Source: Escherichia coli
Lineage (GTDB): Bacteria; Pseudomonadota; Gammaproteobacteria; Enterobacterales; Enterobacteriaceae
Assembly (NCBI RefSeq): GCF_024502345.1
Contig: NZ_JALDNN010000001.1
Reading direction: 5' to 3' (one strand)
Length of the DNA stretch: 64,000 nt
Part shown: piece after piece, positions 12,187 to 29,042 of the stretch
How positions within the stretch are numbered: the first letter of the stretch is position 1
How the letters are laid out: each line of letters begins with the position of its first letter
Translations under genes and position numbers: made by a program
Notes under the pieces: model-generated
The model's database searches: none
Told to the model about the DNA's origin: nothing
Seen by the model: the letters and a program-made list of their open reading frames with translations, nothing else

Positions 12187-12637
12187 GTTTAAGCGTTTTG
12201 AAGACCGGCTGACCGGACTTATTGAATCGCTGTCACCGTCAGGGCGTCGGCGACTGGCGGTAGATATTGCGAAGAAACTGCGCCAGCGCCAGCAGCAGCG
12301 AATTAAATTACAAAAAGCCCCGGATGGTACGCCGTATGTACCGAGAAAAAACCAGCCAGTGCGAAATAAGAAAGGCCGGATAAAGCGGGAAATGTTTGCG
12401 AAATTACGCACAAACCGATTTATGAAAGCAACAGGTAGCGAGAGTGCGGCTGTGGTGGAGTTTGCCAGCGGAGTACAACGAATTGCGAGAGTACATCAAT
12501 TAGGGCTTAGGGATAAGCCGGGGCGTAATAGTGCTGTGGTGGAATATCCTGTTCGTGAGTTATTAGGTTTTGACAAGGAATCTATACAATTGATAGAAAA
12601 GGAGTTATTAGTGATTCTATCGAAAGATGTTATATGA
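12179..12637 (+). CDS. S: P2 gpS tail completion protein (152 aa), 3' part AT-rich/mosaic
   Basis: MNEFKRFEDRLTGLIESLSPSGRRRL N-terminus; composition turns AT-rich in 3' third. Confidence 0.85.
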   Translation: MNEFKRFEDRLTGLIESLSPSGRRRLAVDIAKKLRQRQQQRIKLQKAPDGTPYVPRKNQPVRNKKGRIKREMFAKLRTNRFMKATGSESAAVVEFASGVQRIARVHQLGLRDKPGRNSAVVEYPVRELLGFDKESIQLIEKELLVILSKDVI

Positions 12638-13389
12638 GATGGGTGTTTGTGGATAAAAAATTTTCCATTTTGAGAAAAAGAGTAAAGCATTCTCAAAAGA
12701 AAGTTATGGATTGTATTATTGCTGACCATAATGCTGATGTATGTGTGTTATGCGGGAGTTCTGACGATATTACTCGTGAGCACATTATTCCTCAGTGGGC
12801 CTTTGAGTCAAATGCTGAAAAACTTTTAATTAATAAAAAGAATAATCAGTCAACTCATTACATCAAAGCCACTGTACCAGCATGCAGAGTGTGCAATTCT
12901 GATTTGCTGGGAGCGTTTGAGTATAACCTGAAGAAATTTCTTACGGAAAAGAGGGGCGATGAGTTAACAGATTATGAATATGATTGCATCATATGGTGGT
13001 TGCAATACATGGGCTTTAAGTTGCAATTAATGGATTTACGGACCCGCTTTCTCAGGTATAAAGGGGGGGATTATATCCCTTTCCTTGCAAACTTCCCGGT
13101 TGCAATGTTTTGGGGGAATGTCGATACGACACCGGAGGATGTCTTCAGGATTATAAGAAAATCGCGACGCAATCTGATGTCGAAATGGAAGGATAAAAAA
13201 CATAATTCTTTGATGGTTTTTGAAACATCAAACAAGAGTTTTCATTTCTTTCATAAGGTTGATGAATTTATTTTTATTGAAATGCCTCAGGTTAAGAAGG
13301 CGTTTTTCTTCTTTTTTAATAAAGAATTTGACAGCCATGATTTAGCTCATGAGGAGTGTATGAAGATTATAGAGAAGTGCTACAACTAA
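12634..13389 (+). CDS. Accessory protein with HNH-type nuclease motif (251 aa), inserted between S and V
   Basis: CVLCGSSDDITREHIIPQWAF ... ATVPACRVCNSDL resembles a CxxC...H...N...CxxC HNH core; strongly AT-rich; ATG overlaps S stop (ATGA). Confidence 0.6.
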   Translation: MRWVFVDKKFSILRKRVKHSQKKVMDCIIADHNADVCVLCGSSDDITREHIIPQWAFESNAEKLLINKKNNQSTHYIKATVPACRVCNSDLLGAFEYNLKKFLTEKRGDELTDYEYDCIIWWLQYMGFKLQLMDLRTRFLRYKGGDYIPFLANFPVAMFWGNVDTTPEDVFRIIRKSRRNLMSKWKDKKHNSLMVFETSNKSFHFFHKVDEFIFIEMPQVKKAFFFFFNKEFDSHDLAHEECMKIIEKCYN

Positions 13390-13466: not shown

Positions 13467-14102
13467 ATGAACACTCTCGCAAATATTCAGGAACTCGCGC
13501 GCGCACTGCGCAACATGATCCGCACCGGCATTATCGTCGAAACCGACCTTAACGCCGGTCGCTGCCGTGTGCAGACCGGCGGCATGTGCACCGACTGGCT
13601 TCAGTGGCTGACCCATCGCGCCGGACGTTCGCGCACATGGTGGGCACCTTCCGTGGGGGAACAGGTGCTGATTCTGGCCGTGGGCGGTGAACTCGACACG
13701 GCGTTCGTTCTGCCGGGGATTTATTCCGGCGATAACCCCGCGCCGTCTGCGTCGGCGGATGCCCTGTATATCCGTTTCCCTGACGGGGCGGTGATTGAAT
13801 ATGAACCCGAAACCAGTGCACTCACGGCAAGCGGAATTAAAACGGCCAGCGTGACGGCTTCTGATTCTGTTACTGCCACGGTGCCGGTGGTCATGGTGAA
13901 AGCATCAACCCGCATCACCCTGGACACACCGGAGGTGGTCTGCACCAACAGGCTGATTACCGGCACGCTGGAAGTGCAGAAGGGCGGGACGATGCGCGGC
14001 AACATTGAACACACCGGCGGTGAACTCTCATCAAACGGTAAGGTACTGCATACCCATAAACACCCCGGCGACAGCGGCGGCACAACAGGGGGACCTCTAT
14101 GA
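13467..14102 (+). CDS. V: P2 gpV baseplate spike (211 aa)
   Basis: Start placed at MNTLANIQELARALRNMIRTGII within ORF 13431-14102. Confidence 0.9.
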   Translation: MNTLANIQELARALRNMIRTGIIVETDLNAGRCRVQTGGMCTDWLQWLTHRAGRSRTWWAPSVGEQVLILAVGGELDTAFVLPGIYSGDNPAPSASADALYIRFPDGAVIEYEPETSALTASGIKTASVTASDSVTATVPVVMVKASTRITLDTPEVVCTNRLITGTLEVQKGGTMRGNIEHTGGELSSNGKVLHTHKHPGDSGGTTGGPL

Positions 14103-14446
14103 CTGCGCGTTATCTCGGAATGAATCGCAGTGATGGCCTGACTGTCACTGACCTTGAGCATATCAGCCAGAGTATCGGCGATATCCTGCGCACACCGGTC
14201 GGCTCACGGGTGATGCGTCGTGATTACGGCTCGTTGCTGGCGTCAATGATTGACCAGCCGCAGACCCCGGCGCTTGAGTTGCAGATTAAAGTCGCCTGTT
14301 ACATGGCAGTGCTGAAATGGGAACCCCGCGTCACCCTGTCATCCGTCACCACGGCGCGCAGTTTTGACGGGCGAATGACGGTCACGTTAACCGGTCAGCA
14401 CAACGACACCGGCCAGCCACTTTCGTTAACCATCACTGTGAGTTGA
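14099..14446 (+). CDS. W: P2 gpW baseplate protein (115 aa)
   Basis: 115 aa, overlapping start with V stop. Confidence 0.9.
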   Translation: MTARYLGMNRSDGLTVTDLEHISQSIGDILRTPVGSRVMRRDYGSLLASMIDQPQTPALELQIKVACYMAVLKWEPRVTLSSVTTARSFDGRMTVTLTGQHNDTGQPLSLTITVS

Positions 14447-14450
14447 AACC

Positions 14451-15359
14451 ATGCCGATTATCGACCTGAACCAGCTACCCGCACCGGATGTGGTCGAGGA
14501 GCTGGACTTTGAAACCATTCTTGCCGAACGCAAGGCGACACTGATTTCCCTTTACCCGGAAGACCAGCAGGAGGCGGTCGCCCGTACCCTGACGCTGGAA
14601 TCCGAGCCTCTCGTCAAACTGCTGGAGGAAAATGCGTATCGCGAGCTTATCTGGCGTCAGCGTGTGAATGAGGCTGCACGGGCGGTGATGCTGGCCTGTG
14701 CAGCCGGTAATGACCTTGATGTGATTGGTGCCAATTACAACACCACGCGCCTGACTATCACCCCGGCAGATGATTCGACCCTCCCGCCGACACCGGCAGT
14801 GATGGAATCTGACACGGATTATCGTCTGCGTATTCAGCAGGCGTTTGAAGGTTTAAGCGTTGCCGGGTCGGTGGGTGCCTATCAGTATCATGGTCGCAGT
14901 GCCGACGGGCGCGTCGCAGATATCTCTGTCACCAGTCCGTCTCCGGCCTGCGTCACCATCTCTGTGCTGTCACGTGAAAATAACGGTGTCGCATCCGAAG
15001 ACCTGCTGGCTGTGGTACGTAACGCCCTTAATGGCGAGGACGTCAGGCCGGTGGCCGACCGCGTGACCGTGCAGTCTGCCGCCATTGTTGAATATCAGAT
15101 AAACGCCACGCTTTACCTTTACCCTGGTCCCGAAAGCGAACCCATTCGCGCTGCCGCCGTGAAAAAACTGGAAGCGTATATCACGGCACAGCACCGGCTG
15201 GGGCGCGACATCCGTCTGTCTGCCATTTATGCCGCTTTGCATGTGGAAGGCGTGCAGCGTGTCGAACTGGCTGCACCACTGGCTGACATCGTGCTCAACA
15301 GTACGCAGGCGTCTTTCTGTACCGAATACCGCGTCGTGACCGGAGGCTCGGATGAGTGA
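14451..15359 (+). CDS. J: P2 gpJ baseplate protein (302 aa)
   Basis: 302 aa, position and size. Confidence 0.9.
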   Translation: MPIIDLNQLPAPDVVEELDFETILAERKATLISLYPEDQQEAVARTLTLESEPLVKLLEENAYRELIWRQRVNEAARAVMLACAAGNDLDVIGANYNTTRLTITPADDSTLPPTPAVMESDTDYRLRIQQAFEGLSVAGSVGAYQYHGRSADGRVADISVTSPSPACVTISVLSRENNGVASEDLLAVVRNALNGEDVRPVADRVTVQSAAIVEYQINATLYLYPGPESEPIRAAAVKKLEAYITAQHRLGRDIRLSAIYAALHVEGVQRVELAAPLADIVLNSTQASFCTEYRVVTGGSDE

Positions 15360-15882
15360 TTCGCGACTGCTGCCGACCGGCTCATCACCGCTTGAAGTTG
15401 CTGCCGCAAAAGCCTGTGCGGAAATTGAAAAAACGCCGGTCAGTATTCGTGAGCTGTGGAACCCGGACACCTGCCCGGCAAATCTGCTGCCGTGGCTGGC
15501 GTGGGCGTTTTCGGTCGACAGGTGGGATGAAAAGTGGCCGGAAGCGACAAAACGCGCCGTTATCCGCGATGCGTATTTCATTCATTGTCATAAAGGCACT
15601 ATAGGTGCAATCCGGCGTGTGGTGGAGCCGCTCGGCTATCTCATCAACGTGACGGAGTGGTGGGAAACCAGTGACCCGCCAGGCACCTTCCGGCTTGATA
15701 TTGGTGTACTGGAAAGCGGCATCACAGAGGCAATGTATCAGGAAATGGAACGGCTTATTGCTGATGCCAAACCTGCAAGCCGTCATCTTATTGGCCTGAA
15801 CATTACCCGGGACATTCCCGGCTACCTGTTCGCCGGTGGTGTGGCTTACGACGGCGATGTAATTACGGTTTACCCCGGATAA
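15352..15882 (+). CDS. I: P2 gpI baseplate protein (176 aa)
   Basis: 176 aa, overlaps J stop. Confidence 0.9.
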   Translation: MSDSRLLPTGSSPLEVAAAKACAEIEKTPVSIRELWNPDTCPANLLPWLAWAFSVDRWDEKWPEATKRAVIRDAYFIHCHKGTIGAIRRVVEPLGYLINVTEWWETSDPPGTFRLDIGVLESGITEAMYQEMERLIADAKPASRHLIGLNITRDIPGYLFAGGVAYDGDVITVYPG

Positions 15883-15892
15883 GTGAGGAATA

Positions 15893-18211
15893 ATGAGCAC
15901 AAAATTCAGAACCGTTATCACCACTGCCGGTGCAGCAAAGCTGGCAGCGGCAACCGCACCGGGAGGGCGGAAGGTCAACATTACCACGATGGCCGTCGGG
16001 GATGGCGGTGGTAAATTGCCTGTCCCGGATGCCGGACAGACCGGGCTTATCCACGAAGTCTGGCGACATGCGCTGAACAAAATCAGCCAGGACAAACGAA
16101 ACAGTAATTATATTATCGCAGAGCTGGTTATTCCGCCGGAGGTGGGCGGTTTCTGGATGCGTGAGCTTGGCCTGTACGATGATGCGGGAACGTTAATTGC
16201 CGTGGCGAACATGGCCGAAAGTTATAAGCCAGCTCTTGCCGAAGGCTCAGGGCGTTCGCAGACCTGCCGCATGGTCATCATCGTCAGCAGTGTGGCCTCA
16301 GTGGAGCTGACCATTGACACTACAACGGTGATGGCAACGCAGGATTACGTTGATGACAAAATTGCAGAGCACGAACAGTCACGACGTCACCCGGACGCCT
16401 CGCTGACCGCAAAAGGTTTTACTCAGTTAAGCAGTGCGACCAACAGCACGTCTGAAACACTGGCCGCAACGCCGAAAGCGGTAAAGGCCGCCTATGACCT
16501 TGCTAACGGGAAATATACTGCGCAGGATGCCACCACGGCGCGAAAAGGCCTTGTTCAGCTCAGTAGTGTGACCAACAGCACGTCTGAAACGCTCGCCGCA
16601 ACGCCGAAAGCGGTAAAGGCAGCATATGACCTTGCTAACGGGAAATACACTGCACAGGACGCCACCACCGCGCGAAAAGGCCTTGTTCAGCTCAGTAGCG
16701 CCACCAACAGCGATTCTGAAACGCTTGCGGCAACACCAAAGGCGGTTAAGACAGCGTATGACCTTGCTAACGGGAAATACACTGCACAGGATGCCACCAC
16801 TGCGCGAAAAGGTCTTGTCCAGCTCAGTAGCGCCACCAACAGTGATTCTGAAACCCTCGCGGCAACGCCAAAAGCAGTGAAGTCTGCCTATGACAATGCT
16901 GAAAAACGTCTTCAGAAAGATCAGAACGGTGCGGATATTCCGGGAAAGGATACCTTTACGAAAAATATCGGTGCCTGTCGTGCTTATAGCGGCGCTTTGA
17001 GCACTGAAGCCGGAAACTGGACAACCGCTCAGTTTATTGAATGGCTGGATTCCCGTGGTGCATTTAATCATCCGTACTGGATGTGCAAAGGCTCCTGGTC
17101 ATATGCAAATAACAAAATCATTACGGATACCGGATGTGGTGATATCCACCTGGCTGGTTGTGTAGTCGAGGTCATGGGAACTAAATCTGCAATCACTATC
17201 CGAGTGACCACGCCGACAACATCAAGCGGTGGCGGTACAACCAGCGCACAATTCACTTACATTAATCATGGGGACGGCTACTCCCCCGGCTGGCGTCGTG
17301 ACTGGAATCGTCAGGGCGACTCAATGACCGGAACGATTAATCAGGATGGCGGAAGCCAGAATGCCTATATGTCTACGGCCTTATGTTCAGGCACCAGAGG
17401 CGGCAAAAAATATCTCAGAAAGTTTCGTGGTGGAGAAGGAGACACTATCTGGCATGAAACAGTGCAGGGCGGGGTAATTCGCTGGGCGACAGGAAACTAT
17501 GACGCTCAGGAAGAATTATCACTCAGCTCCGCTTATGGTCTCCGTTCTAGAGGTGAAATTACATCACTCAGTGCTAATGGTCTGCGCATTGCTTATGGCA
17601 ATTATGGATTCTTTATCAGGAATGATGGTGGCAGCACATATTTAATGCTGACGGCCTCTGGTGATAAATTTGGGACATGGAACGGTTTAAGGCCGCTGAC
17701 TATCAATAACGCTAATGGCGGAGTGTCAATGGGGCATGGCCTGAGTGTTACTGGTGATATTGCCTCAAGTACCAAAGTACGTGCCGGTAGCGGGAAAAAG
17801 TTCACGGTCAGCAGCAGCAATACATCCACGAAGGAAGCCGCATTCAATTTGTGGGGAAACTCAAGTCGTCCTGTGGTGGCTGAATTAGGTGATGATGCAG
17901 GCTGGCATTTTTACAGTCAGAGAAATACAGATAACAGCATCACTTTTGCTGTTAACGGGCAGGTATCACCATCTAACTATAGTAATTTTGATTCACGCTA
18001 TGTCCGGGATATCCGACTTGGTGGTGCTGCCACATACAAACCTGCTAACAATGGCATGACATGGACACATCAGGCACCGTCCGGGTGTGTATATTCCGGC
18101 ATTATTGTTCAGGATACCGGCTCAAACTCTGCCGATAACATTGGTGGCGTATATTACAGACCGGTGCAGAAATACATTAATGGGACTTGGTATAACGTGG
18201 CGCAGGTATAA
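15893..18211 (+). CDS. H: P2 gpH tail fiber protein (772 aa) with internal tandem repeats
   Basis: Conserved N-terminus MSTKFRTVITTAGAAKLAAATAPGG; four 44-aa repeats; variable C-terminal half. Confidence 0.9.
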   Translation: MSTKFRTVITTAGAAKLAAATAPGGRKVNITTMAVGDGGGKLPVPDAGQTGLIHEVWRHALNKISQDKRNSNYIIAELVIPPEVGGFWMRELGLYDDAGTLIAVANMAESYKPALAEGSGRSQTCRMVIIVSSVASVELTIDTTTVMATQDYVDDKIAEHEQSRRHPDASLTAKGFTQLSSATNSTSETLAATPKAVKAAYDLANGKYTAQDATTARKGLVQLSSVTNSTSETLAATPKAVKAAYDLANGKYTAQDATTARKGLVQLSSATNSDSETLAATPKAVKTAYDLANGKYTAQDATTARKGLVQLSSATNSDSETLAATPKAVKSAYDNAEKRLQKDQNGADIPGKDTFTKNIGACRAYSGALSTEAGNWTTAQFIEWLDSRGAFNHPYWMCKGSWSYANNKIITDTGCGDIHLAGCVVEVMGTKSAITIRVTTPTTSSGGGTTSAQFTYINHGDGYSPGWRRDWNRQGDSMTGTINQDGGSQNAYMSTALCSGTRGGKKYLRKFRGGEGDTIWHETVQGGVIRWATGNYDAQEELSLSSAYGLRSRGEITSLSANGLRIAYGNYGFFIRNDGGSTYLMLTASGDKFGTWNGLRPLTINNANGGVSMGHGLSVTGDIASSTKVRAGSGKKFTVSSSNTSTKEAAFNLWGNSSRPVVAELGDDAGWHFYSQRNTDNSITFAVNGQVSPSNYSNFDSRYVRDIRLGGAATYKPANNGMTWTHQAPSGCVYSGIIVQDTGSNSADNIGGVYYRPVQKYINGTWYNVAQV
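16412..16939 (+). repeat. Four tandem 132-bp repeats inside tail fiber gene H
   Basis: Repeated unit KG(L/F)xQLSSxTNSxSETLAATPKAVKxAYDLANGKYTAQDATTAR visible in protein and DNA; fourth copy diverges. Confidence 0.8.
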
Positions 18212-18214
18212 TTT

Positions 18215-18742
18215 ATGCAGCATTTGATAAATATAATGGCAGGTAATCCAAAAACGGTTGAACAATATCAATTGACAAAGGACTTTGATGTTGTCTGGTT
18301 TTTTTCAGAAGATGGTAAGAACTGGTACGAAGAACAAAAGTATTTTGCTGATGACACGATAAAAATAGCGTACGACAAAGATAATATTATCCGCTATGTG
18401 GAAAAGGATGTGACAGCTATCAGACCGGATGGATTAAGTGTTGTTGAAGTGCCGGATATTACTGCTAACCGACGGGCGGACATTTCAGGGAACTGGATGT
18501 TTAAGGACGGTACAGTGATTAAACGAATTTATACGGCAGAGGAATTGCAGCAGCAGGCAGAAAATCGGAAAGCCAGACTTCTTGCAGATGCTGAATCCGT
18601 GATTTTGCCGCTGGAGCGCGCTGTCAGGCTGAATATGGCAACAGATGAGGAGCGCAGTCGACTGGAGGCATGGGAACGCTACAGTGTTCTGGTCAGTCGT
18701 GTGGATCCTGCAAATCCTGAATGGCCGGAAATGCCGCAATAA
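18215..18742 (+). CDS. G: P2 gpG tail fiber assembly chaperone (175 aa)
   Basis: 175 aa, immediately after H. Confidence 0.85.
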
Positions 18743-18864
18743 GTTGTATGAGCTCTGGTGTGAGCTTACATATCTATGGCACAGAGTAAAGCCTAATCTG
18801 AGAGTCCGCTCTGTGCCAGGAGGGGACGTTGCTCACCTATAAATATCCCAGCAAAACGGAACAC

Positions 18865-19673
18865 TCATCTTTGCAATCTTTTTATGTTTATATAAAGTTC
18901 CTCAATCAGCTCTTCCGAATTTTGACTGTAATGCAATGCCCGATGGCAATTCGGGCATAATGCAACACAATTGCTTATGGTGTCAGCACCAGATAAAGAA
19001 AGAGGTATCACATGATACACTTCGAGATATGGGATATCGCCATTTATTAAGAACGGTGTATTTTCACTACATCTTTCACAAACGCCCTTACTCCCTTGCA
19101 ATACACAAGATTTAACAGCAAGATCCCGAATATAAACCTTCTGAACTCTTTCTAATGTTCCAGTTTTTTATGTCCCTCGGACTCGTTCAAAGGAATTTAT
19201 ATTAGCTTACTGACCATTTTACTTAGAACACTCTCATCATTAGTGGCTCGAAAAGCACTGATGTATCTCCGTAGATGATAGGTTTCCAAAATTCAGCACT
19301 ATTAACACTAGGAACATTTATCATTACTCGCTCAGTTCTGTTCCCTGATGGTGCATCTTTTTTAGCAGTACTGTTCAAATGAGTCTGATACATACACATT
19401 TTTTGGGAAATATCGGAAGGGTAGTTTCCCACTAAAGAAAATTACATCATCAGGATGTATTTTTCTTTCCGCTATAGATGGTATATGTCTTCCGGTTGAT
19501 GATGAGGCCAAATACACAACGCCTTTGTTTACCCCGGAATCAATAAGTCGTCCAATGATATAATCGATGGCAATATTATAATCTTTGTTTCTATGCGCCA
19601 GTCATCAGGGCTCAAATATCAGGCCATATACCCCATCTTCTTCACCTACTAGGCACTCAACGTTCAGTTCCAT
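18865..19673 (-). pseudogene. mcrA-like HNH endonuclease gene (type IV 5-methylcytosine restriction family), disrupted by several frame changes
   Basis: Pieces in three frames: MELNVECLVGEEDGVYGLIFEP; AHRNKDYNIAIDYIIGRLIDSGVNKGVVYLASSSTGRHIPSIAERKIHPDDV; ...SGNRTERVMINVP...; intact C-terminal HNH core CERC...PYLEVYHVIPLSLSGADTISNCVALCPNCHRALH. These resemble McrA as recalled from memory. Confidence 0.6.
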
Positions 19674-19877
19674 ACCATTGTTATCAAGAGATTGCTTTGT
19701 ATTGCGCGGGAAACGTCTAGTTTGAATTAAGGAATTGTGAGGCGGAAGATGGGATTTAGGAATTTGGTTAGAGTTAGCAATGTTAATAAATGGGCCTAAT
19801 TTCACTTTAAATCAAATTCCTAAATATTAAAGAAAGCAAGCTGGCCTACATAAACAGCCAGCCTTGGATAATTCAAT

Positions 19878-21692
19878 TCACTTCTTACATAGAATGCTGG
19901 GTTTTACTCCGTACTCAACACATGCACTCAAAAATGTATTTATAAGCCAGATTAGCTGAACAGTATAAGGTTTGGCTGACTGATTTCTCTTGATGATTTC
20001 CACCTCATCGATTAACATTTTTTTTCTTAAAAATGGAGCAGCTAATATTAACTCCCTACTAGTTTTCGGACTCTCATTAATTTTGTCAAGAGCTAACTCA
20101 ATGTCATTCCTGGAAGTGTCAATTGGTCTAATTCTACTAATCTGCGTTTGTAAATATTTTGAAGACCATTCATTATCATATTTATCAAGGTAAAGTTCTT
20201 TTGGTGAATGTAATCTGCCAATATTTTTTAAAGCTTGACTTATAACTTCATGAAATTTACTGGCGCCATAGCTCTCTTTTTTAATATATTTAGAATGAAT
20301 AAACTTTATGGATGGATTTCCTGTCGTGATATCCAGCACAATATGATCGGCCCACTCATCATTCATATCATCACAAATTACAATAGCATCTTTATTTGAA
20401 TAGATATTCTCCACTCGTCTAAATAGCGATCTCACTGGAAATCTTTTAATATTTTCTGGATAAGATTGTTTGTCATCTTTCTCTTTTTCCGATCTGATTG
20501 TTGAAAAATCAAAGCTATCATCAAAAACGGACAGGAAAATATTCAAATTATTTAACATCGTTTTATCTTCAAAACACGAACGACCATGATAGCAATATTG
20601 GGGGGAATCGAAGGTTATAGTGAATGGCTTAAACTTGTTAATATATTTACTAAGCGACATTAACTGAGAACCATTTTCACTAATCATTATACCATCGAGA
20701 TATTTGGATACTATAGTCACAACCTTAGTATTGAATCTCAGACGACATTTGAATTTGAATCTTAAATTGGTTAGCGTTTCACCATCTAAGAAATATGATG
20801 ATTTAAATCCATTGAAAAATTTGTCAAGTTCAACAGAACTTAACGTCACCGTTCCATGAGGCACATTTTTTGTTAGTGTAAAAGTATGGGACGTGCCACG
20901 CACCATATCATCCAACTCGCTAAGATCTATAAAAATAGCTTTTGGCTTGACTTTTTTTGCTAATAATTCACTCAAAGTAATAGGGGAAGAGAAACCTGCC
21001 ATTAGCTTACTTGACAAAGAGGCTGTGTTAGATAATTCATTTACTGTAGCTATTGCCCATGAGCAGAAATTAAAAAAATCCACTTTTTTATCTTTGTAGC
21101 CTATTCGTGAAGTATTTGGTGTTAAAGTAAATATGTCATTTCCTGTCTTGACTCTAAATGTCCCTGGAATTGAACGTCCAGTCGTGTTAGGAGAAAGAAT
21201 GCCACTTAGATTTTTTGCTTCCACTGTTCTATTTCTTATCACTGAATCTGACAGTGACATATTCCTCATGCTAATTTTTTCATACTCAGGATTCAGCCTT
21301 CCATTAAAATTTGAAAATTTATCAAACTCAAAGTATTCTATGAACCTTTCCAACTCGCTTTCAATTGCATCAACATTTTTCTTCGAAATTATTAAAAAAT
21401 CCTGAACCTCCAAGATCATTAGATACGCATACTTGCTTTCTGAAATGCTAGTGCCTTGTAGAAATGAAGGCTCTTCTAGAACTTTAAAAGACACCAAAGA
21501 GTAAGTTAAATTCCCATTATCTACAACAACTTCAGATTTAATTTTATTTATAAGAAAGACACCATCTTTTATCGAGGATATGCTTCTAAATAGATTTTTT
21601 ATTTTATTTCTAGATAAAGGTTTTTTTATCTTAAAAAATTGTGCATTTTTTGATAAAATTAAATCATTGATACTGAAAATATATTTAGTCAC
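19878..21692 (-). CDS. Orphan AT-rich protein of unknown function (604 aa), prophage hotspot cargo
   Basis: Long uninterrupted ORF in very AT-rich DNA; GTG start 8 nt after AAGGA; no Walker A, no YxDD box, no HNH seen by eye; C-terminal segment AIVICDDMNDEWADHIVLD...IKFIHSKY could be a nuclease-like acidic/basic cluster. Confidence 0.6.
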   Translation of the reverse strand: MTKYIFSINDLILSKNAQFFKIKKPLSRNKIKNLFRSISSIKDGVFLINKIKSEVVVDNGNLTYSLVSFKVLEEPSFLQGTSISESKYAYLMILEVQDFLIISKKNVDAIESELERFIEYFEFDKFSNFNGRLNPEYEKISMRNMSLSDSVIRNRTVEAKNLSGILSPNTTGRSIPGTFRVKTGNDIFTLTPNTSRIGYKDKKVDFFNFCSWAIATVNELSNTASLSSKLMAGFSSPITLSELLAKKVKPKAIFIDLSELDDMVRGTSHTFTLTKNVPHGTVTLSSVELDKFFNGFKSSYFLDGETLTNLRFKFKCRLRFNTKVVTIVSKYLDGIMISENGSQLMSLSKYINKFKPFTITFDSPQYCYHGRSCFEDKTMLNNLNIFLSVFDDSFDFSTIRSEKEKDDKQSYPENIKRFPVRSLFRRVENIYSNKDAIVICDDMNDEWADHIVLDITTGNPSIKFIHSKYIKKESYGASKFHEVISQALKNIGRLHSPKELYLDKYDNEWSSKYLQTQISRIRPIDTSRNDIELALDKINESPKTSRELILAAPFLRKKMLIDEVEIIKRNQSAKPYTVQLIWLINTFLSACVEYGVKPSILCKK

Positions 21693-22214
21693 TTTGATGT
21701 CCTTATAATTAACATTTGATTATTCAAGAACAACTAGACAGCACTTCAGAGAAAATCAAATGGGAAATGGAATAGTTTAGATTCAGAAGATTACATTAAC
21801 ACGTAATATATTAAAAGTAATTATCTAAAACAATATTAATTATTGACTCGCGCAGTATTTAACTGCAAAAATTTGATTTAGGTCGTTTTTTTCTTACAAA
21901 GGCCAAGCCGCCAGGCCCGAAATGCCGCCTCTGCCGGTTAGCGCAATTGGGCTGACGCCCCGGGGCACTGGGGAGCCGAAACTTTAAGAAATCCGGAGAA
22001 TTGACCGTTATTTGAAATAAAAATGCCATTGTAACTTTCGTGTTTAGGCATAGAAAAATTTCCTTTTAACAAAACATAGTAATACTAGTAATGCGCCTTG
22101 TGCGGTGATCAAAATTGCGAACTTCCGCTCCTCGCTCAAAGCAGACTGTCAGATTTGATAGCGTTTTGGCTATGTAAATTGTCAGTCGGAAAATGAGTGA
22201 GTACAAACTAGGAC

Positions 22215-22240
22215 AGGCGGGCGAATTGCCCGCCTTTTCT
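22215..22240 (+). terminator. Rho-independent terminator upstream of FI
   Basis: ggcgggcg-aatt-gcccgcc hairpin followed by ttttct. Confidence 0.55.
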
Positions 22241-22338
22241 GTATCTGTTGTTTCATCCACTGACCAGACAGGTCAAATAGCGTCTCATGCTCTGCCCAAC
22301 GGAAAATAGTTGCACCCATTAACCACGGAGTTAAACGG

Positions 22339-23529
22339 ATGAGTGACTATCATCACGGCGTGCAGGTGCTGGAGATTAACGACGGCACCCGCGTCATTTC
22401 CACCGTATCCACTGCCATTGTCGGCATGGTCTGTACGGCCAGCGATGCAGATGCGGAAACCTTCCCCCTCAATAAACCGGTGTTGATTACCAATGTGCAG
22501 AGCGCAATTGCAAAGGCCGGTAAAAAAGGCACGCTGGCGGCATCGTTGCAGGCCATCGCTGACCAGTCAAAACCGGTCACCGTTGTCGTGCGCGTGGAAG
22601 ACGGCACCGGTGATGACGAGGAAACGAAACTCGCGCAGACCGTTTCCAATATCATCGGCACCACCGACGAAAACGGTCAGTACACCGGACTGAAAGCCCT
22701 GCTGGCGGCGGAGTCGGTAACCGGTGTTAAACCGCGTATTCTCGGCGTGCCGGGACTGGACACCAAAGAGGTGGCTGTTGCACTGGCATCAGTCTGTCAG
22801 AAGCTGCGCGCTTTCGGGTATATCAGCGCATGGGGCTGTAAAACTATTTCCGAGGTGAAAGCCTACCGCCAGAATTTCAGCCAGCGTGAGTTGATGGTCA
22901 TCTGGCCGGATTACCTCGCATGGGATACGGTCACCAGTACCACCGCCACCGCGTATGCCACCGCCCGTGCGCTGGGTCTGCGCGCTAAAATCGACCAGGA
23001 GCAGGGCTGGCATAAAACACTGTCCAACGTTGGGGTGAACGGTGTTACCGGCATCAGCGCATCTGTATTCTGGGATTTGCAGGAGTCCGGCACCGATGCT
23101 GACCTGCTGAATGAGTCAGGCGTCACAACGCTGATTCGCCGTGACGGTTTCCGCTTCTGGGGTAACCGTACCTGCTCTGATGACCCGCTGTTCCTCTTTG
23201 AAAACTACACCCGCACCGCGCAGGTACTGGCCGACACGATGGCTGAGGCGCACATGTGGGCGGTGGACAAGCCCATCACCGCAACGCTGATTCGCGACAT
23301 CGTTGACGGCATCAATGCCAAATTCCGTGAGCTGAAAACAAACGGTTATATCGTGGATGCGACCTGCTGGTTCAGCGAAGAATCCAACGATGCGGAAACC
23401 CTCAAGGCCGGAAAACTGTATATCGACTATGACTATACACCGGTGCCTCCTCTCGAAAACCTGACCCTGCGCCAGCGTATTACCGATAAATACCTGGCGA
23501 ATCTGGTCACCCCGGTTAACAGCAATTAA
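22339..23529 (+). CDS. FI: P2 gpFI tail sheath protein (396 aa)
   Basis: 396 aa, size and position. Confidence 0.9.
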   Translation: MSDYHHGVQVLEINDGTRVISTVSTAIVGMVCTASDADAETFPLNKPVLITNVQSAIAKAGKKGTLAASLQAIADQSKPVTVVVRVEDGTGDDEETKLAQTVSNIIGTTDENGQYTGLKALLAAESVTGVKPRILGVPGLDTKEVAVALASVCQKLRAFGYISAWGCKTISEVKAYRQNFSQRELMVIWPDYLAWDTVTSTTATAYATARALGLRAKIDQEQGWHKTLSNVGVNGVTGISASVFWDLQESGTDADLLNESGVTTLIRRDGFRFWGNRTCSDDPLFLFENYTRTAQVLADTMAEAHMWAVDKPITATLIRDIVDGINAKFRELKTNGYIVDATCWFSEESNDAETLKAGKLYIDYDYTPVPPLENLTLRQRITDKYLANLVTPVNSN

Positions 23530-23541
23530 GGAGCCTGACCG

Positions 23542-24060
23542 ATGGCAATGCCGCGCAAACTCAAGTTAATGAACGTCTTTCTGAACGGCTACAGCTATCA
23601 GGGCGTTGCAAAGTCCGTCACGCTGCCAAAACTGACCCGTAAACTCGAAAACTATCGCGGTGCGGGGATGAACGGCAGCGCACCGATAGACCTCGGCCTT
23701 GATGACGATGCGCTGTCAATGGAGTGGTCGCTCGGTGGTTTCCCGGATTCGGTTATCTGGGAGCTTTACGCCGCAACCGGTGTGGATGCCGTACCGATTC
23801 GTTTTGCAGGCTCTTACCAGCGCGACGATACCGGCGAAACGGTGGCCGTCGAGGTGGTCATGCGTGGACGTCAGAAAGAAATCGACACCGGCGAGGGTAA
23901 ACAGGGAGAAGACACCGAGTCGAAAATCTCCGTGGTCTGCACCTATTTCCGGCTGACGATGGACGGTAAGGAGCTGGTCGAAATCGACACCATCAACATG
24001 ATTGAGAAGGTGAACGGCGTCGACCGGCTGGAGCAACACCGCCGCAATATCGGCCTGTGA
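23542..24060 (+). CDS. FII: P2 gpFII tail tube protein (172 aa)
   Basis: 172 aa, follows sheath. Confidence 0.9.
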   Translation: MAMPRKLKLMNVFLNGYSYQGVAKSVTLPKLTRKLENYRGAGMNGSAPIDLGLDDDALSMEWSLGGFPDSVIWELYAATGVDAVPIRFAGSYQRDDTGETVAVEVVMRGRQKEIDTGEGKQGEDTESKISVVCTYFRLTMDGKELVEIDTINMIEKVNGVDRLEQHRRNIGL

Positions 24061-24116
24061 TTTTCATCCGGTCAGCCAGGCTGACCGGTTAACCCTGATT
24101 AAGAAGTGAGAAAACC

Positions 24117-24392
24117 ATGAACAAAGAAAATGTGATTACCCTGGACAATCCGGTCAAACGTGGTGAGCAGGTCATCGAACAGGTCACGCTGATGAAACCC
24201 AGTGCGGGGACGCTGCGCGGTGTCAGTCTGGCTGCGGTCGCAAACTCCGAAGTCGATGCACTGATTAAAGTGCTGCCGCGCATGACGGCACCGATGCTGA
24301 CCGAGCAGGAGGTCGCCGCACTGGAACTGCCTGACCTTGTGGCGCTGGCCGGTAAGGTGGTCGGTTTTTTGTCGCCGAACTCGGTGCAGTGA
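24117..24392 (+). CDS. E: P2 gpE tail assembly chaperone (91 aa)
   Basis: 91 aa between tube and tape measure. Confidence 0.85.
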   Translation: MNKENVITLDNPVKRGEQVIEQVTLMKPSAGTLRGVSLAAVANSEVDALIKVLPRMTAPMLTEQEVAALELPDLVALAGKVVGFLSPNSVQ

Positions 24393-24544
24393 CGTTCCCG
24401 AAAAATCTCTCGGTCGATGACCTGATGGCGGATGTGGCAGTGATATTTCACTGGCCGCCATCAGAACTGTATCCCATGAGCCTGACCGAACTCATCACAT
24501 GGCGCGAAAAGGCGCTCCGGCGAAGCGGAAACACGAATGAGTAA
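24117..24544 (+). CDS. E': P2 gpE+E' produced by programmed -1 ribosomal frameshift (about 142 aa)
   Basis: Slippery GGTTTTTTG run at 24363-24371 near the end of E; the -1 frame stays open to TAA at 24542-24544, overlapping the T start. Confidence 0.65.
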
Positions 24545-26984
24545 CAATGTAAAATTACAGGTATTGCTCAGGGCTGTTGACCAGGCATCCCGCCCGTTTA
24601 AATCCATCCGCACAGCGAGTAAGTCGCTGTCGGGGGATATCCGGGAAACACAAAAATCACTACGCGAGCTGAACGGTCACGCATCCCGTATTGAGGGATT
24701 CCGCAAGACCAGCGCACAGCTCGCCGTGACTGGTCATGCACTTGAAAAGGCACGGCAGGAGGCCGAAGCCCTTGCCACACAGTTTAAAAACACCGAACGT
24801 CCGACCCGTGCTCAGGCGAAAGTGCTGGAATCCGCAAAGCGAGCGGCGGAGGACTTACAGGCGAAATATAACCGCCTGACGGATTCCGTTAAACGCCAGC
24901 AGCGGGAACTGGCCGCTGTGGGAATTAATACCCGCAATCTTGCACATGATGAGCAGGGACTGAAAAACCGTATCAGTGAAACCACCGCACAGCTTAACCG
25001 GCAGCGTGACGCGCTGGCGCGTGTCAGTGCGCAACAGGCAAAACTTAACGCAGTAAAACAGCGTTATCAGGCAGGCAAGGAACTGGCCGGAAATATGGCC
25101 TCAGTGGGCGCTGCCGGTGTGGGGATTGCGGCGGCGGGAACGATGGCCGGAGTTAAGTTGCTGATGCCCGGTTATGAGTTTGCGCAGAAAAACTCAGAAT
25201 TGCAGGCCGTGCTCGGAGTGGCAAAAGACTCCGCCGAAATGACCGCACTACGCAAACAGGCGCGCCAGCTCGGCGACAATACCGCCGCCTCGGCGGATGA
25301 TGCGGCCGGTGCACAGATAATCATCGCGAAAGCGGGTGGGGATGTTGATGCCATTCAGGCGGCAACGCCGGTCACGCTGAATATGGCGCTGGCGAACCGT
25401 CGCACGATGGAAGAAAACGCCGCCCTGCTGATGGGGATGAAATCCGCCTTTCAGCTTTCAAACGATAAGGTCGCTCATATTGGGGATGTTCTCTCCATGA
25501 CGATGAACAAAACCGCCGCCGATTTTGACGGTATGAGCGATGCGCTGACCTATGCCGCACCTGTGGCAAAAAATGCCGGTGTCAGCATTGAAGAAACCGC
25601 CGCAATGGTCGGGGTGCTGCATGATGCAAAAATCACAGGCTCAATGGCGGGGACGGGAAGCCGTGCCGTGTTAAGCCGCCTGCAGGCACCGACGGGAAAA
25701 GCATGGGATGCACTCAAAGAGCTTGGAGTGAAAACCTCAGACAGCAAGGGAAACACCCGGTCAATATTTACCATTCTGAAAGAAATGCAGGCCAGTTTTG
25801 AGAAAAACCGGCTCGGTACTGCCCAGCAGGCTGAATACATGAAAACCATTTTCGGGGAGGAGGCCAGCTCAGCCGCCGCCGTGCTGATGACTGCCGCCTC
25901 AACCGGAAAGCTGGACAAACTGACCGCTGCGTTTAAAGCCTCAGACGGGAAGACCGCGGAGCTGGTAAATATCATGCAAGACAACCTCGGCGGTGACTTT
26001 AAGGAGTTTCAGTCCGCTTATGAGGCGGTAGGGACTGACCTGTTTGACCAGCAGGAAGGTGCGCTGCGTAAGCTCACGCAGACGGCCACAAAGTATGTGT
26101 TAAAACTCGACGGCTGGATACAGAAAAACAAATCACTGGCGTCAACCATCGGCCTCATTGCCGGTGGCGCACTGGTGCTGACTGGCATCATCGGTGCCAT
26201 TGGTCTTGTAGCCTGGCCGGTTATCACCGGCATCAATGCCATCATCGCGGCAGCAGGCGCAATGGGGGCAGTCTTCACGACGGTTGGCAGTGCTGTTATG
26301 ACCGCCATCGGGGCGATTAGCTGGCCGGTTGTGGCCGTGGTGGCCGCAATTGTCGCCGGGGCGTTGCTTATCCGTAAATACTGGGAGCCTGTCAGCGCAT
26401 TCTTTGGCGGTGTGGTTGAAGGGCTGAAAGTGGCATTTGCGCCGGTGGGGGAACTGTTCACGCCACTTAAGCCGGTGTTTGACTGGCTGGGTGAAAAGTT
26501 ACAGGCCGCGTGGCAGTGGTTTAAAAACCTGATTGCCCCGGTCAAAGCCACTCAGGACACCCTGAACAGTTGCCGTGACACGGGGGTCATGTTCGGGCAG
26601 GCACTGGCTGACGCGCTGATGCTGCCGCTTAATGCGTTCAACAAACTGCGCAGCGGTATTGACTGGGTACTGGAAAAACTCGGTGTTATCAACAAAGAGT
26701 CAGACACACTTGACCAGACCGCCGCCAGAACTCAAGCCGCCACGTATGGCAGCGGTGGTTATATTCCGGCGACCAGCTCTTATGCAGGCTATCAGGCTTA
26801 TCAGCCAGTCACGGCACCGGCTGGCCGCTCTTATGTGGACCAGAGTAAAAACGAATATCACATCAACCTGACGGGCGGTACTGCGCCGGGAACACAGCTT
26901 GACCGCCAGTTACAGGATGCGCTCGAAAAATACGAGCGGGATAAACGTGCGCGCGCCCGTGCCAGCATGATGCATGACGGTTAA
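24537..26984 (+). CDS. T: P2 gpT tail tape measure protein (815 aa)
   Basis: 815 aa; coiled-coil N-terminal half and Gly/Ala-rich hydrophobic segments. Confidence 0.9.
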   Translation: MSNNVKLQVLLRAVDQASRPFKSIRTASKSLSGDIRETQKSLRELNGHASRIEGFRKTSAQLAVTGHALEKARQEAEALATQFKNTERPTRAQAKVLESAKRAAEDLQAKYNRLTDSVKRQQRELAAVGINTRNLAHDEQGLKNRISETTAQLNRQRDALARVSAQQAKLNAVKQRYQAGKELAGNMASVGAAGVGIAAAGTMAGVKLLMPGYEFAQKNSELQAVLGVAKDSAEMTALRKQARQLGDNTAASADDAAGAQIIIAKAGGDVDAIQAATPVTLNMALANRRTMEENAALLMGMKSAFQLSNDKVAHIGDVLSMTMNKTAADFDGMSDALTYAAPVAKNAGVSIEETAAMVGVLHDAKITGSMAGTGSRAVLSRLQAPTGKAWDALKELGVKTSDSKGNTRSIFTILKEMQASFEKNRLGTAQQAEYMKTIFGEEASSAAAVLMTAASTGKLDKLTAAFKASDGKTAELVNIMQDNLGGDFKEFQSAYEAVGTDLFDQQEGALRKLTQTATKYVLKLDGWIQKNKSLASTIGLIAGGALVLTGIIGAIGLVAWPVITGINAIIAAAGAMGAVFTTVGSAVMTAIGAISWPVVAVVAAIVAGALLIRKYWEPVSAFFGGVVEGLKVAFAPVGELFTPLKPVFDWLGEKLQAAWQWFKNLIAPVKATQDTLNSCRDTGVMFGQALADALMLPLNAFNKLRSGIDWVLEKLGVINKESDTLDQTAARTQAATYGSGGYIPATSSYAGYQAYQPVTAPAGRSYVDQSKNEYHINLTGGTAPGTQLDRQLQDALEKYERDKRARARASMMHDG

Positions 26985-26998
26985 GGAGGTGACGAAAA

Positions 26999-27478
26999 AT
27001 GATGCTCGCGTTAGGTATGTTTGTTTTTATGCGCCAGACGCTGCCACACCAGGCCATGCAGCGTGAATCAGATTATCGCTGGCCGTCAAATTCCCGTATC
27101 GGTAAACGGGATGCCTTTCAGTTTCTCGGTGTGGGTGAGGAAAACATTACGCTTGCCGGTGTGCTTTATCCCGAACTGACAGGCGGAAAGCTGACGATGA
27201 CCACGCTCAGGATGATGGCAGAGGAAGGTCGGGCGTGGCCGTTGCTGGATGGCACCGGCATGATTTACGGCATGTATGTCATCAGCAGGGTGAGTGAAAC
27301 AGGGAGTATTTTCTTTGCAGACGGCACACCCCGGAAAATTGATTTTACGCTGTCGCTCACCCGCGTTGATGAATCACTGGCCGCGCTTTATGGCGATATC
27401 GGTAAACAGGCGGAATCGCTCATCGGTAAGGCTGGCAGTATGGCGACCAGATTCACGGGTATGACGGGGGCGGGATAA
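26999..27478 (+). CDS. U: P2 gpU tail protein (159 aa)
   Basis: 159 aa, size and position. Confidence 0.9.
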   Translation: MMLALGMFVFMRQTLPHQAMQRESDYRWPSNSRIGKRDAFQFLGVGEENITLAGVLYPELTGGKLTMTTLRMMAEEGRAWPLLDGTGMIYGMYVISRVSETGSIFFADGTPRKIDFTLSLTRVDESLAALYGDIGKQAESLIGKAGSMATRFTGMTGAG

Positions 27479-28641
27479 TGCTGGATGCGCTGACATTTGA
27501 TGCAGGCAGTACGCTGACGCCGGATTACATGCTGATGCTCGACAGCAGGGATATTACCGGCAATATCAGCGACCGTCTGATGAGCATGACCCTGACGGAT
27601 AACCGGGGCTTTGAGGCTGACCAGCTTGATATTGAACTGAACGATGCCGACGGGCAGGTCGGGCTGCCGGTTCGTGGCGCTGTCCTGACGGTGTATATCG
27701 GCTGGAAAGGTTTTGCCCTGGTATGCAAAGGGAAATTTACCGTTGATGAGGTTGAACACCGGGGCGCACCGGATGTGGTCACCATCCGTGCCCGGAGTGC
27801 AGATTTTCGTGGGACGCTCAATTCCCGCCGGGAAGGCTCCTGGCATGACACCACGCTCGGTGCGATTGTTGAGGCGATAGCCTCCCGTAACAGGCTGGAA
27901 GCCAGTGTCGCTCCGTCACTGGCCGGAATTAAAATCCCGCACATCGACCAGTCGCAGGAGTCTGATGTGAAATTCCTGACCCGTCTTGCTGAACGCAACG
28001 GCGGCGAGGTGTCGGTAAAAATGGGAAAACTGCTGTTTCTCAAAGCAGGGCAGGGGGTGACGGCCAGCGGTAAAAAAATCCCGCAGATTACCATCACCCG
28101 CAGCGACGGCGACCGTCATCATTTTGCGATTGCTGACCGTGGAGCTTACACCGGCGTAACGGCAAAGTGGTTACACACCAAAGACCCGAAGCCGCAAAAG
28201 CAGAAGGTAAAACTGAAACGCAAAAAGAAAGAAAAACACCTGCGCGCACTGGAGCACCCGAAAGCGAAACCGGTCACGCAGAAGAAAGCGCCAAAAGTAC
28301 CGGAAGCGCGCGAAGGTGAATACATGGCCGGTGAAGCTGACAACGTTTTTGCCCTGACTACGGTATATGCCACAAAAGCGCAGGCCATGCGCGCCGCTCA
28401 GGCAAAGTGGGACAAACTGCAACGGGGCGTCGCGGAGTTCTCCATCAGCCTGGCTACCGGTCGGGCAGATATTTACACGGAAACACCGGTTAAAGTGTCA
28501 GGCTTTAAGCGCGTCATAGACGAGCAGGACTGGACAATCACTAAGGTGACACATTTTCTGAATAATAGCGGCTTCACGACGTCCTTAGAGCTTGAGGTCA
28601 GGCTTTCTGATGTGGAGTACGAAACAGAAGATGATGAGTGA
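27478..28641 (+). CDS. D: P2 gpD tail protein (387 aa)
   Basis: 387 aa, size and position. Confidence 0.9.
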   Translation: MLDALTFDAGSTLTPDYMLMLDSRDITGNISDRLMSMTLTDNRGFEADQLDIELNDADGQVGLPVRGAVLTVYIGWKGFALVCKGKFTVDEVEHRGAPDVVTIRARSADFRGTLNSRREGSWHDTTLGAIVEAIASRNRLEASVAPSLAGIKIPHIDQSQESDVKFLTRLAERNGGEVSVKMGKLLFLKAGQGVTASGKKIPQITITRSDGDRHHFAIADRGAYTGVTAKWLHTKDPKPQKQKVKLKRKKKEKHLRALEHPKAKPVTQKKAPKVPEAREGEYMAGEADNVFALTTVYATKAQAMRAAQAKWDKLQRGVAEFSISLATGRADIYTETPVKVSGFKRVIDEQDWTITKVTHFLNNSGFTTSLELEVRLSDVEYETEDDE

Positions 28642-28722
28642 TGTTTATTATTTATCTGTTTGTTTTATAAGGATAAATTAACTAAAATGGCACCATCAAC
28701 AAAACCGGAAGAGGTGCTCGCG

Positions 28723-28941: not shown

Positions 28942-28952
28942 TTACAAACAGA

Positions 28953-28979
28953 AAGCCCCTCAGTCGAGGGGCTTTTTTG
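28953..28979 (+). terminator. Rho-independent terminator after ogr
   Basis: agcccctc-agtc-gaggggct hairpin followed by a T-run. Confidence 0.65.
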
Positions 28980-29042
28980 TCGATGTGGTCAATGTGTGGA
29001 CGTGACCAGAAATAAATCCTTTTATTTCATCGTATTACGCGT

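What the first reader, a model, noticed from the sequence alone, without database searches (positions are those of the whole stretch)
16412..16939. Four tandem 132-bp (44-aa) repeats in tail fiber gene H
Near-identical repeats (KGLVQLSSxTNSxSETLAATPKAVKxAYDLANGKYTAQDATTAR) lengthen H to 772 aa versus about 669 aa for P2 H as recalled. Repeat number in fiber shafts can change by slippage and can alter fiber length or host range. An antisense 214-aa ORF in the track (16427-17071) is a by-product of this repetition.
Basis: seen in the sequence. Interest (0 to 1): 0.4.

Follow-up and report, generated by a model that had tools for sequence, protein, structure and literature searches.

The report
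Ordinary tail-fibre shaft repeat, four copies
The tail-fibre gene of a P2-like prophage in E. coli carries four in-frame copies of a well-known 44-residue "phage tail fibre repeat"; relatives carry two to six copies, four is the commonest number, and this is routine tail-fibre modularity.

Summary
Gene H (15893-18211, 772 aa) contains a 132-nt/44-aa tandem array in exactly the register given (units start at 16412, 16544, 16676, 16808). There are three complete units plus a fourth that keeps only the first 29 residues. All four match Pfam PF03406 (Phage_fiber_2). The units are 91-93% identical as protein but only 81-88% as DNA, and most differences are synonymous. They are therefore old copies under purifying selection, not a fresh slippage product.

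Phage P2 H (669 aa) has two units. The two extra units explain 88 of the 103 extra residues; the rest comes from a different, Mu S'/S-like distal region.

Among 74 complete H genes with a ≥99% identical N-terminal domain, copy number is 2 (15), 3 (2), 4 (50) or 5 (7). Partial database proteins reach 6. Units keep a positional identity, and gains and losses look like in-register unequal recombination.

An independent complete E. coli genome carries the identical array, so assembly artefact is unlikely.

The antisense 214-aa ORF is a by-product. It is the in-register antisense frame, it is broken by stops in 22 of 81 relatives, and its non-synonymous/synonymous ratio is 25.

The feature is already known and of low interest.

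The parts
15893..18211 (+). Tail-fibre gene H of a P2-like prophage (772 aa)
   Evidence: ORF. Pfam PF12571 + 4x PF03406 + PF21446. PHROG tail-fibre families. Gene order V-W-J-I-H-G in the 99.9% identical RefSeq locus and in P2.
15893..16345 (+). N-terminal tail-collar/baseplate-attachment domain (aa 1-151)
   Evidence: PF12571 Phage_tail_fib, E 1.6e-58, aa 1-151. It is 99-100% identical in 80 IMG/VR loci.
16412..16543 (+). Repeat unit 1 (aa 174-217) KGFTQLSSATNSTSETLAATPKAVKAAYDLANGKYTAQDATTAR
16544..16675 (+). Repeat unit 2 (aa 218-261), 87.9% nt identity to unit 1
16676..16807 (+). Repeat unit 3 (aa 262-305), 87.9% nt identity to unit 2 and 81.1% to unit 1
16808..16894 (+). Terminal unit, core only (aa 306-334, 29 aa). 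The linker half is replaced by the junction NAEKRLQKDQNGADI (16895-16939).
   Evidence: The same core plus junction occurs in Mu S aa 117-160.
16895..18208 (+). Distal fibre (438 aa), a mosaic related to the Mu S' and S variable parts; presumed receptor-binding region
   Evidence: phmmer against PDB sequences: aa 334-487 match 8ju3 (S/S' chimera) and aa 548-771 match 5yvq (Mu S); PF21446 at aa 541-604. No similarity to P2 H aa 252-533.
18215..18742 (+). Tail-fibre assembly gene G (175 aa)
   Evidence: PF02413 Caudo_TAP, E 1.2e-34. RefSeq annotation in the 730V1 prophage.
16427..17071 (-). Antisense 214-aa ORF: not a gene, a by-product of H codon usage multiplied by the repeat
   Evidence: It is the in-register antisense frame, open wherever H lacks TTA/CTA/TCA codons (H codons 180-402). 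Stops interrupt it in 22 of 81 relatives. Non-synonymous/synonymous ratio is 25 antisense against 0.18 sense. No PHROG match. No nearby promoter-like site.

Best explanation
The tract is an in-frame array of the known 'phage tail fibre repeat' (Pfam PF03406). It lies in the proximal shaft of the trimeric tail fibre H of a P2-like prophage. It sits between the conserved N-terminal baseplate-attachment domain and a distal Mu S'/S-like receptor-binding region.

Inferred structure: each 44-residue unit is predicted to form a short beta-hairpin, a helix of about 14 residues and a flexible linker. Each unit would then add a fixed increment of shaft length.

Shown from comparison of alleles: the units are old copies, diverged at synonymous sites and conserved as protein. 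Copy number (2-6 in close relatives, 4 the commonest) changes occasionally through in-register unequal homologous recombination or gene conversion between units, not through slippage of identical copies.

Inferred from the same core and junction in Mu S and from established literature: the conserved core also serves as a homology patch at which different distal modules are joined.

The antisense ORF is a non-coding by-product.
For: Identity of the repeat:
- Pfam PF03406, 255 bits against a cut-off of 22, four stretches. PF12571 covers aa 1-151.
- H is followed by a Caudo_TAP chaperone gene and sits in P2 gene order.

Purifying selection on the protein:
- Between units, 11-18 of the 16-25 nucleotide differences fall at third codon positions.
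- Across 55 four-copy alleles the non-synonymous/synonymous ratio is 0.18.

Copy-number polymorphism, always at 44-aa spacing:
- 2 copies in 15 loci, 3 in 2, 4 in 50 and 5 in 7, among 74 complete H ORFs.
- Up to 6 in the protein database.
- P2 itself has 2.

Recombination rather than slippage:
- Units keep positional types. Five-copy alleles duplicate a unit-2-type or a unit-3-type unit, and three-copy alleles lack the unit-3-type unit.
- Adjacent units reach 99-100% identity in L010 and L032.

Copy number is decoupled from the receptor-binding module:
- The same distal modules (≥95-98% identical) occur with 3 and 5 copies, and with 4 and 5 copies.

Not an assembly artefact:
- The array is identical in the complete genome NZ_CP061764 and in L012 and L027.
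- The 40 listed best of 173 E. coli genomes covering at least 80% of the gene are single-piece full-length alignments, all but three spanning the same 2319 nt.

Breadth of the family:
- 4113 representative clusters match the unit, with 2-13 copies among the best 150. The commonest spacings are 44 and 56 aa.

Structure:
- An MSA-based AlphaFold2 model of two units has mean pLDDT 70.7 and shows hairpin plus helix per unit.
Against: - The structural role is inferred. The model is a monomer of a trimeric protein, only one of five models reached pLDDT 70, and Foldseek found no significant PDB match.
- No solved structure is known to me in which this motif is ordered. Only the Mu S chains contain it by sequence.
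- No experiment here links copy number to fibre length, adsorption or host range.
- The recombination mechanism is inferred from patterns among alleles, not observed.
Confidence: 0.85

Rival explanations
1. The four copies are an assembly artefact: collapse or expansion of a repeat by short-read assembly.
For: Many database homologues are 'partial' proteins that end within or soon after the repeat, which shows that short-read assemblies often break in this gene.
Against: Units differ at 16-25 of 132 nt, so reads can place them. The array is identical in an independent complete chromosome (NZ_CP061764; the 3 mismatches in H all lie outside the array) and in two IMG/VR contigs. The 40 listed best E. 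coli genome hits are single-piece full-length alignments, all but three spanning the same 2319 nt. Four is the commonest state in 74 complete ORFs.
Confidence: 0.02
2. The array is a recent slippage-driven expansion, a contingency-type hypervariable tract that changes length at high frequency within a population.
For: Copy number is polymorphic among close relatives. Two alleles have 99-100% identical adjacent units, which indicates recent duplication or conversion.
Against: In the window, adjacent units are only 86-88% identical. Unit position is conserved across 55 four-copy alleles: unit 1 pairs best with unit 1 in 1483 of 1485 comparisons. Within the window's distal-module class 12 of 13 members, the window included, have four copies. 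The period is 132 nt, far longer than typical slippage tracts.
Confidence: 0.05
3. The antisense ORF 16427..17071 encodes a real 214-aa protein overlapping H.
For: The open run is longer than expected. The longest in-register antisense run in H is 223 codons, against a mean of 123 in codon permutations; 0.85% of permutations reach it.
Against: That excess follows from repeating one stop-free unit four times. Stops interrupt the frame in 22 of 81 relatives, including alleles of the same 772-aa class. Substitutions are overwhelmingly non-synonymous in the antisense frame (39688 against 1582) and synonymous in the sense frame. There is no PHROG family match. The only minus-strand promoter-like sites in 15500-19500 lie more than 1.3 kb upstream of its start, and the region holds fewer sites than shuffled sequence.
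Confidence: 0.01
4. The repeats are themselves ligand-binding modules (for example weak polysaccharide binders) whose multiplicity raises avidity, and are not a passive spacer.
For: The core (SETLAATPKAVK) is extremely conserved across fibres of many phage types. Repeated domains in other phage proteins can be carbohydrate binders (general knowledge).
Against: The same units occur upstream of unrelated distal modules with different presumed receptors. This fits a structural or assembly role better than a specificity role. No carbohydrate-binding family matches the repeat. The prediction shows a small hairpin plus helix without a pocket, at moderate confidence.
Confidence: 0.05

Closest known systems
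Pfam PF03406 Phage_fiber_2 ('phage tail fibre repeat'), first noted in lambda Stf and P2 H
   Same: All four units match the model far above the curated cut-off. They lie in a tail-fibre protein, in tandem. PMC3368898 lists this family as 'Pf2', found in lambda Stf and prophage fibres, and states that little is known about its structure and function.
   Different: Nothing essential differs. This is an instance with 3 full units and 1 truncated unit at a strict 44-aa period. Other fibre families alternate 44- and 56-aa periods and reach 10-12 copies.
Bacteriophage P2 tail fibre H (NC_001895, 669 aa)
   Same: The first 251 aa are 96% identical: the N-terminal domain, unit 1 and the unit-2 core. 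Gene order is the same and gene G follows.
   Different: P2 has 2 units, not 4. P2's terminal unit joins a different distal module (…KAVKTVMDETNKKAPLNSPALTG…). Window aa 340-628 has no detectable similarity to P2 H, and the C-terminal tip is 59% identical.
Bacteriophage Mu tail fibre S / S' (PDB 5yvq, 8ju3, 9ki1)
   Same: Mu S aa 117-160 is one copy of the same core plus the same junction (KGLVQLTSATDSPSETLAATAKAVKIAMDNANARLAKDRNGADI). Window aa 334-487 resembles the S' part and aa 548-771 the S part.
   Different: Mu has a single unit and a different N-terminal domain. Mu switches S and S' by G-segment inversion, whereas no invertible segment or matching inverted repeats are present here.
Tandem in-frame duplications in the tail-fibre gene of Enterococcus phage EfV12-phi1 during coevolution (PMC6365445)
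   Same: That system also shows in-frame variation in copy number of a fibre segment upstream of the predicted carbohydrate-binding domain. There it is linked experimentally to recovery of infectivity.
   Different: The protein and host are unrelated and the units are 1.8 kb. Those duplications arose de novo within days. Here the units are ancient and diverged, and no phenotype has been tested.

Membership tests
Pfam PF03406 Phage_fiber_2 repeat | Sequence matches the family HMM above the curated gathering score | tested here: met
   255.4 bits against a cut-off of 22, E 1.5e-77, four stretches; the best covers aa 170-210 and profile positions 1-41 of 42.
Pfam PF03406 Phage_fiber_2 repeat | Occurs in phage or prophage tail-fibre proteins, usually in multiple copies | tested here: met
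   The host protein has PF12571 and PF21446 and matches PHROG tail-fibre families. 4113 representative clusters carry the unit, with 2-13 copies among the best 150.
Pfam PF03406 Phage_fiber_2 repeat | Defined three-dimensional fold of the unit within a trimeric fibre | tested here: inconclusive
   The monomer AF2 model with an MSA gives hairpin plus helix per unit at pLDDT 70.7, but four of the five models scored below 54. The single-sequence model was useless at pLDDT 43.8. Foldseek against the PDB found nothing with E below 0.3. No trimer prediction tool was available.
P2-type (Peduovirus) tail fibre protein H | N-terminal tail-collar fibre domain homologous to P2 H | tested here: met
   PF12571 at aa 1-151. 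96% identity to P2 H over aa 1-251.
P2-type (Peduovirus) tail fibre protein H | Position in the late operon V-W-J-I-H-G, followed by a tail-fibre assembly gene | tested here: met
   Tail_P2_I upstream and Caudo_TAP downstream. The annotated gene order in the near-identical prophage and in P2 agrees.
P2-type (Peduovirus) tail fibre protein H | Distal receptor-binding region homologous to that of P2 H | tested here: not met
   Window aa 340-628 has no BLASTP similarity to P2 H, and the tip is only 59% identical. The distal part is Mu S'/S-like. This is normal mosaicism in this family; it makes the gene a different H allele, not a non-member.
Slippage-type hypervariable (contingency) repeat tract | Near-identical DNA units that allow frequent strand slippage | tested here: not met
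   Adjacent units are 86-88% identical, and units 1 and 3 are 81% identical.
Slippage-type hypervariable (contingency) repeat tract | Length heterogeneity within a clonal population | not testable with these tools
   This needs read-level data. The only indirect evidence is that 12 of 13 members of the same distal class, the window included, have four copies.

The most novel reading that the evidence does not exclude
Copy number of the 44-aa unit may be an adaptive 'reach' setting. On this reading, fibres with 2 to 6 units differ in length so as to match the thickness of the host's O-antigen or capsule layer. The strong synonymous divergence between units (about 3x the diversity of the adjacent N-terminal domain) would then be maintained because it suppresses recombination and stabilises a chosen length. 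The evidence neither shows nor excludes this. The same distal modules occur with different copy numbers, but most classes are fixed for one number.
Probability: 0.12. Interest if true: 0.4.

Novelty: already known. Interest (0 to 1): 0.12.

Why it matters
It matters little beyond correct annotation. The repeat is a curated Pfam family, and an essentially identical protein is already annotated as a tail-fibre protein in RefSeq. The practical points are:
1. The 214-aa antisense ORF should not be annotated as a gene.
2. H alleles cannot be compared by length alone, because both repeat number and the distal module vary.
3. People who engineer P2 or R-pyocin-type fibres have a natural series of 2-6 units that could be used to test whether shaft length affects adsorption.

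Tried and rejected
- Single-sequence AlphaFold2 of aa 141-400 gave pLDDT 43.8 and an all-helix guess. I discarded it.
- Foldseek of the better two-unit model against the PDB found no match with E below 0.3. The weak hits were phage fibre proteins but are not significant.
- A profile search of PDB sequences with the unit found only the Mu S chains. Whether the motif is ordered in those entries could not be established: the Mu virion paper modelled only 'the N-terminus' of gp49 and gives no residue range in the text.
- The original P2 H paper (PMC206541) is not held. What I say about it rests on my own knowledge and on its citation in PMC12143355.
- I looked for a Mu-like invertible segment, given the S/S' similarity. 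Only weak inverted repeats of 71-84% complementarity turned up, and none flanks the distal H region plus G as an invertible segment would.
- I looked for a promoter serving the antisense ORF and found none nearby. Promoter-like sites were fewer than in shuffled sequence.
- My first regex count of repeats missed variant cores and alternative N-termini. I replaced it with an HMM count.

Full report
**Observation**

Tandem Repeats Finder reports a single array in 15000-19000. It spans 16439-16894, with period 132, 3.5 copies, 88% matches, no indels and score 660. The repeat finder gives 226-nt copies at 132-nt spacing from 16411 to 16900. The surrounding ORF is 15893..18211 (+), 772 aa.

In that frame the units start at aa 174, 218, 262 and 306, which is nt 16412, 16544, 16676 and 16808.

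- Units 1-3 are complete 44-aa units. They differ pairwise at 3-4 residues and at 16-25 of 132 nucleotides.
- Unit 4 shares only its first 29 residues (KGLVQLSSATNSDSETLAATPKAVKSAYD). It then continues as NAEKRLQKDQNGADI.
- The tract is therefore about 3.7 units, conserved at the protein level and clearly diverged at the DNA level.
- The antisense ORF 16427..17071 (214 aa) is present.

**What it is**

Pfam places four Phage_fiber_2 (PF03406) stretches in the protein (255 bits, cut-off 22). It also finds the P2-type N-terminal domain PF12571 at aa 1-151 and a T4 gp34-type trimerisation domain at aa 541-604. The upstream ORF is Tail_P2_I and the downstream ORF is a Caudo_TAP fibre chaperone. PHROGs gives tail-fibre families.

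The window is an E. coli chromosome carrying a P2-like prophage. The prophage runs from gene A (cut by the window start) to ogr and lies next to yegQ-baeSR-mdtABCD. In E. coli O19:H7 730V1, H is 99.9% identical and is annotated as a tail fibre protein within the usual V-W-J-I-H-G order.

**Comparison with P2**

In NC_001895, H is 669 aa and has two units. The window protein is 96% identical to P2 H over aa 1-251. It then has two additional complete units (88 aa). After that it has a distal region of 438 aa, against 423 aa in P2. Over aa 340-628 this region has no detectable similarity to P2, and its tip is 59% identical.

By sequence, the distal region is related to the Mu fibre. Aa 334-487 match the S' part of PDB 8ju3 and aa 548-771 match Mu S (5yvq). 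Mu S aa 117-160 is a single copy of the same core and the same junction. So the repeat explains most, but not all, of the length difference from P2. The conserved core sits at the seam between exchangeable modules. This is the classical picture of tail-fibre mosaicism; I know it from Haggård-Ljungquist et al. 1992, which is cited in PMC12143355 but is not readable here.

**Copy number among relatives**

I fetched 80 IMG/VR loci whose N-terminal domain is 99-100% identical and counted units with an HMM built from the window units.

| Units | Loci with a complete H ORF (74) |
|---|---|
| 2 | 15 |
| 3 | 2 |
| 4 | 50 |
| 5 | 7 |

Spacing is always exactly 44 aa. In the protein database the best 120 hits have 3-6 copies. 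Many are partial proteins from broken contigs. Two-unit alleles all carry the P2-type junction. Alleles with 3-5 units carry the Mu-type junction.

Across all public proteins, 4113 representative clusters match the unit. The best 150 carry 2-13 copies, with 44 aa and then 56 aa as the commonest spacings. Other fibre families reach 10-12 copies. Four copies is thus the commonest state, and P2 is the short variant.

**How the number changes**

- Between units, most nucleotide differences fall at third codon positions.
- Among 55 four-copy alleles, the repeat region is about three times as diverse as the N-terminal domain (6.0% against 1.8%), mostly at synonymous sites.
- Units keep positional identity. 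Unit 1 is closest to unit 1 in 1483 of 1485 allele pairs. Units 2 and 3 swap affinity in 10-15% of pairs.
- Five-copy alleles contain a second unit-2-type or unit-3-type unit. Three-copy alleles lack the unit-3 type. L032 has units 1,3,3,terminal, with the two middle units 100% identical. L010 has a 99.2% identical adjacent pair.

This pattern is what in-register unequal homologous recombination and gene conversion between diverged units would produce. It is not what slippage of identical units would produce.

The same distal module occurs with 3 and 5 units (≥98% identical distal parts), and the window's own distal class occurs with 4 units (12 members, counting the window) and 5 units (1). 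Copy number therefore changes independently of the receptor-binding part, but not often.

**Assembly artefact**

This is unlikely.

- The units are distinguishable by sequence.
- The array is identical in an independent complete genome. The three differences in H lie at gene positions 195, 2124 and 2289, outside the array.
- The array is also identical in L012 and L027.
- The 40 listed best E. coli genome hits, of 173 covering at least 80% of the gene, are single-piece full-length alignments; 37 span exactly 2319 nt and three differ by 1-10 nt.

**Antisense ORF**

- It is the in-register antisense frame. It stays open wherever H uses no TTA, CTA or TCA codon, and H codons 180-402 have none.
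- The run is longer than in codon permutations (0.85% reach it). That is expected when one stop-free unit is present four times.
- Stops break the frame in 22 of 81 relatives.
- Substitutions are 25:1 non-synonymous in that frame, against 0.18 in the H frame.
- The product matches no PHROG family, and no promoter-like site lies nearby.

**Structure and mechanism**

The single-sequence AlphaFold2 model was uninformative (pLDDT 43.8). With an alignment of 35 diverse two-unit segments, the best model reached pLDDT 70.7. In each unit it shows two short strands (around VQL and LAAT), then a helix of about 14 residues (PKAVKAAYDLANGK) and a low-confidence linker. Foldseek found no significant PDB match. 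PMC3368898 notes that little is known about this domain.

My reading is that each unit is a small trimerising shaft module that adds a fixed length between the baseplate anchor and the receptor-binding end. This is an inference from position, conservation and the moderate-confidence model.

A phenotype for copy number is not shown here. An unrelated precedent exists in Enterococcus phage EfV12-phi1, where in-frame tandem duplications of a fibre segment arose during coevolution (PMC6365445).

**Verdict**

The corrections are:
- The fourth unit is partial.
- Four copies is the norm, not an expansion.
- Recombination fits better than slippage.
- The difference from P2 also involves a different distal module.

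The feature belongs to a curated family and an already annotated protein. Interest is low.

Noticed in passing
window 19000-22300; ORF 19878..21692 (-): A low-GC island (32-38% against about 55% in the flanks) lies between tail-fibre assembly gene G and sheath gene FI. This is the slot that holds fun(Z) in P2. It contains a 604-aa ORF that matches the PADLOC candidate defence family PDC-S71 end to end (E 1e-218) and has no Pfam domain. It is probably prophage-borne anti-phage cargo with an unknown mechanism.
   Followed up: partly
window 12634..13389 (+): A 251-aa ORF lies between tail genes S and V, the slot of the nonessential orf30 in P2. It has only faint, sub-threshold HNH_5 and Endonuclease_1 hits and no PADLOC hit. 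The 730V1 prophage, whose alignable 2-kb blocks from window 14001 to 30000 are 97-100% identical, carries a different, opposite-strand 357-aa hypothetical gene there, so this is a second variable cargo slot.
   Followed up: partly
window 16895-18208 (H aa 335-772): The distal two-thirds of H is a mosaic of Mu fibre variable parts in one ORF. Aa 334-487 are very close to the S' part (PDB 8ju3) and aa 548-771 resemble Mu S (5yvq). No invertible segment is present. The receptor specificity of this H allele is therefore likely to differ from that of P2.
   Followed up: partly
related proteins P0121-P0127: Other tail-fibre families with different N-termini carry near-identical units in strictly alternating 44- and 56-aa periods, up to 10-12 copies. 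The 56-aa variant has the linker …AAGKAPSSHTHPWNQITGVPTASLTAKG. Such shared unit sequences could act as recombination bridges between fibre genes of unrelated prophages; that role is inferred, not tested.
   Followed up: no
related loci L001-L080, H aa 174-334: Among four-copy alleles the repeat region has about three times the nucleotide diversity of the adjacent N-terminal domain (6.0% against 1.8%), almost all synonymous. There are 66 distinct DNA arrays among 81 sequences. This suggests frequent gene conversion or import from other fibre genes, but I did not test it.
   Followed up: partly
protein database hits P0001-P0120: A large share of H homologues in public databases are 'partial' proteins of 340-610 aa, so short-read assemblies commonly break inside or just after this repeat-bearing gene. 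Copy-number surveys should use complete genomes only.
   Followed up: no
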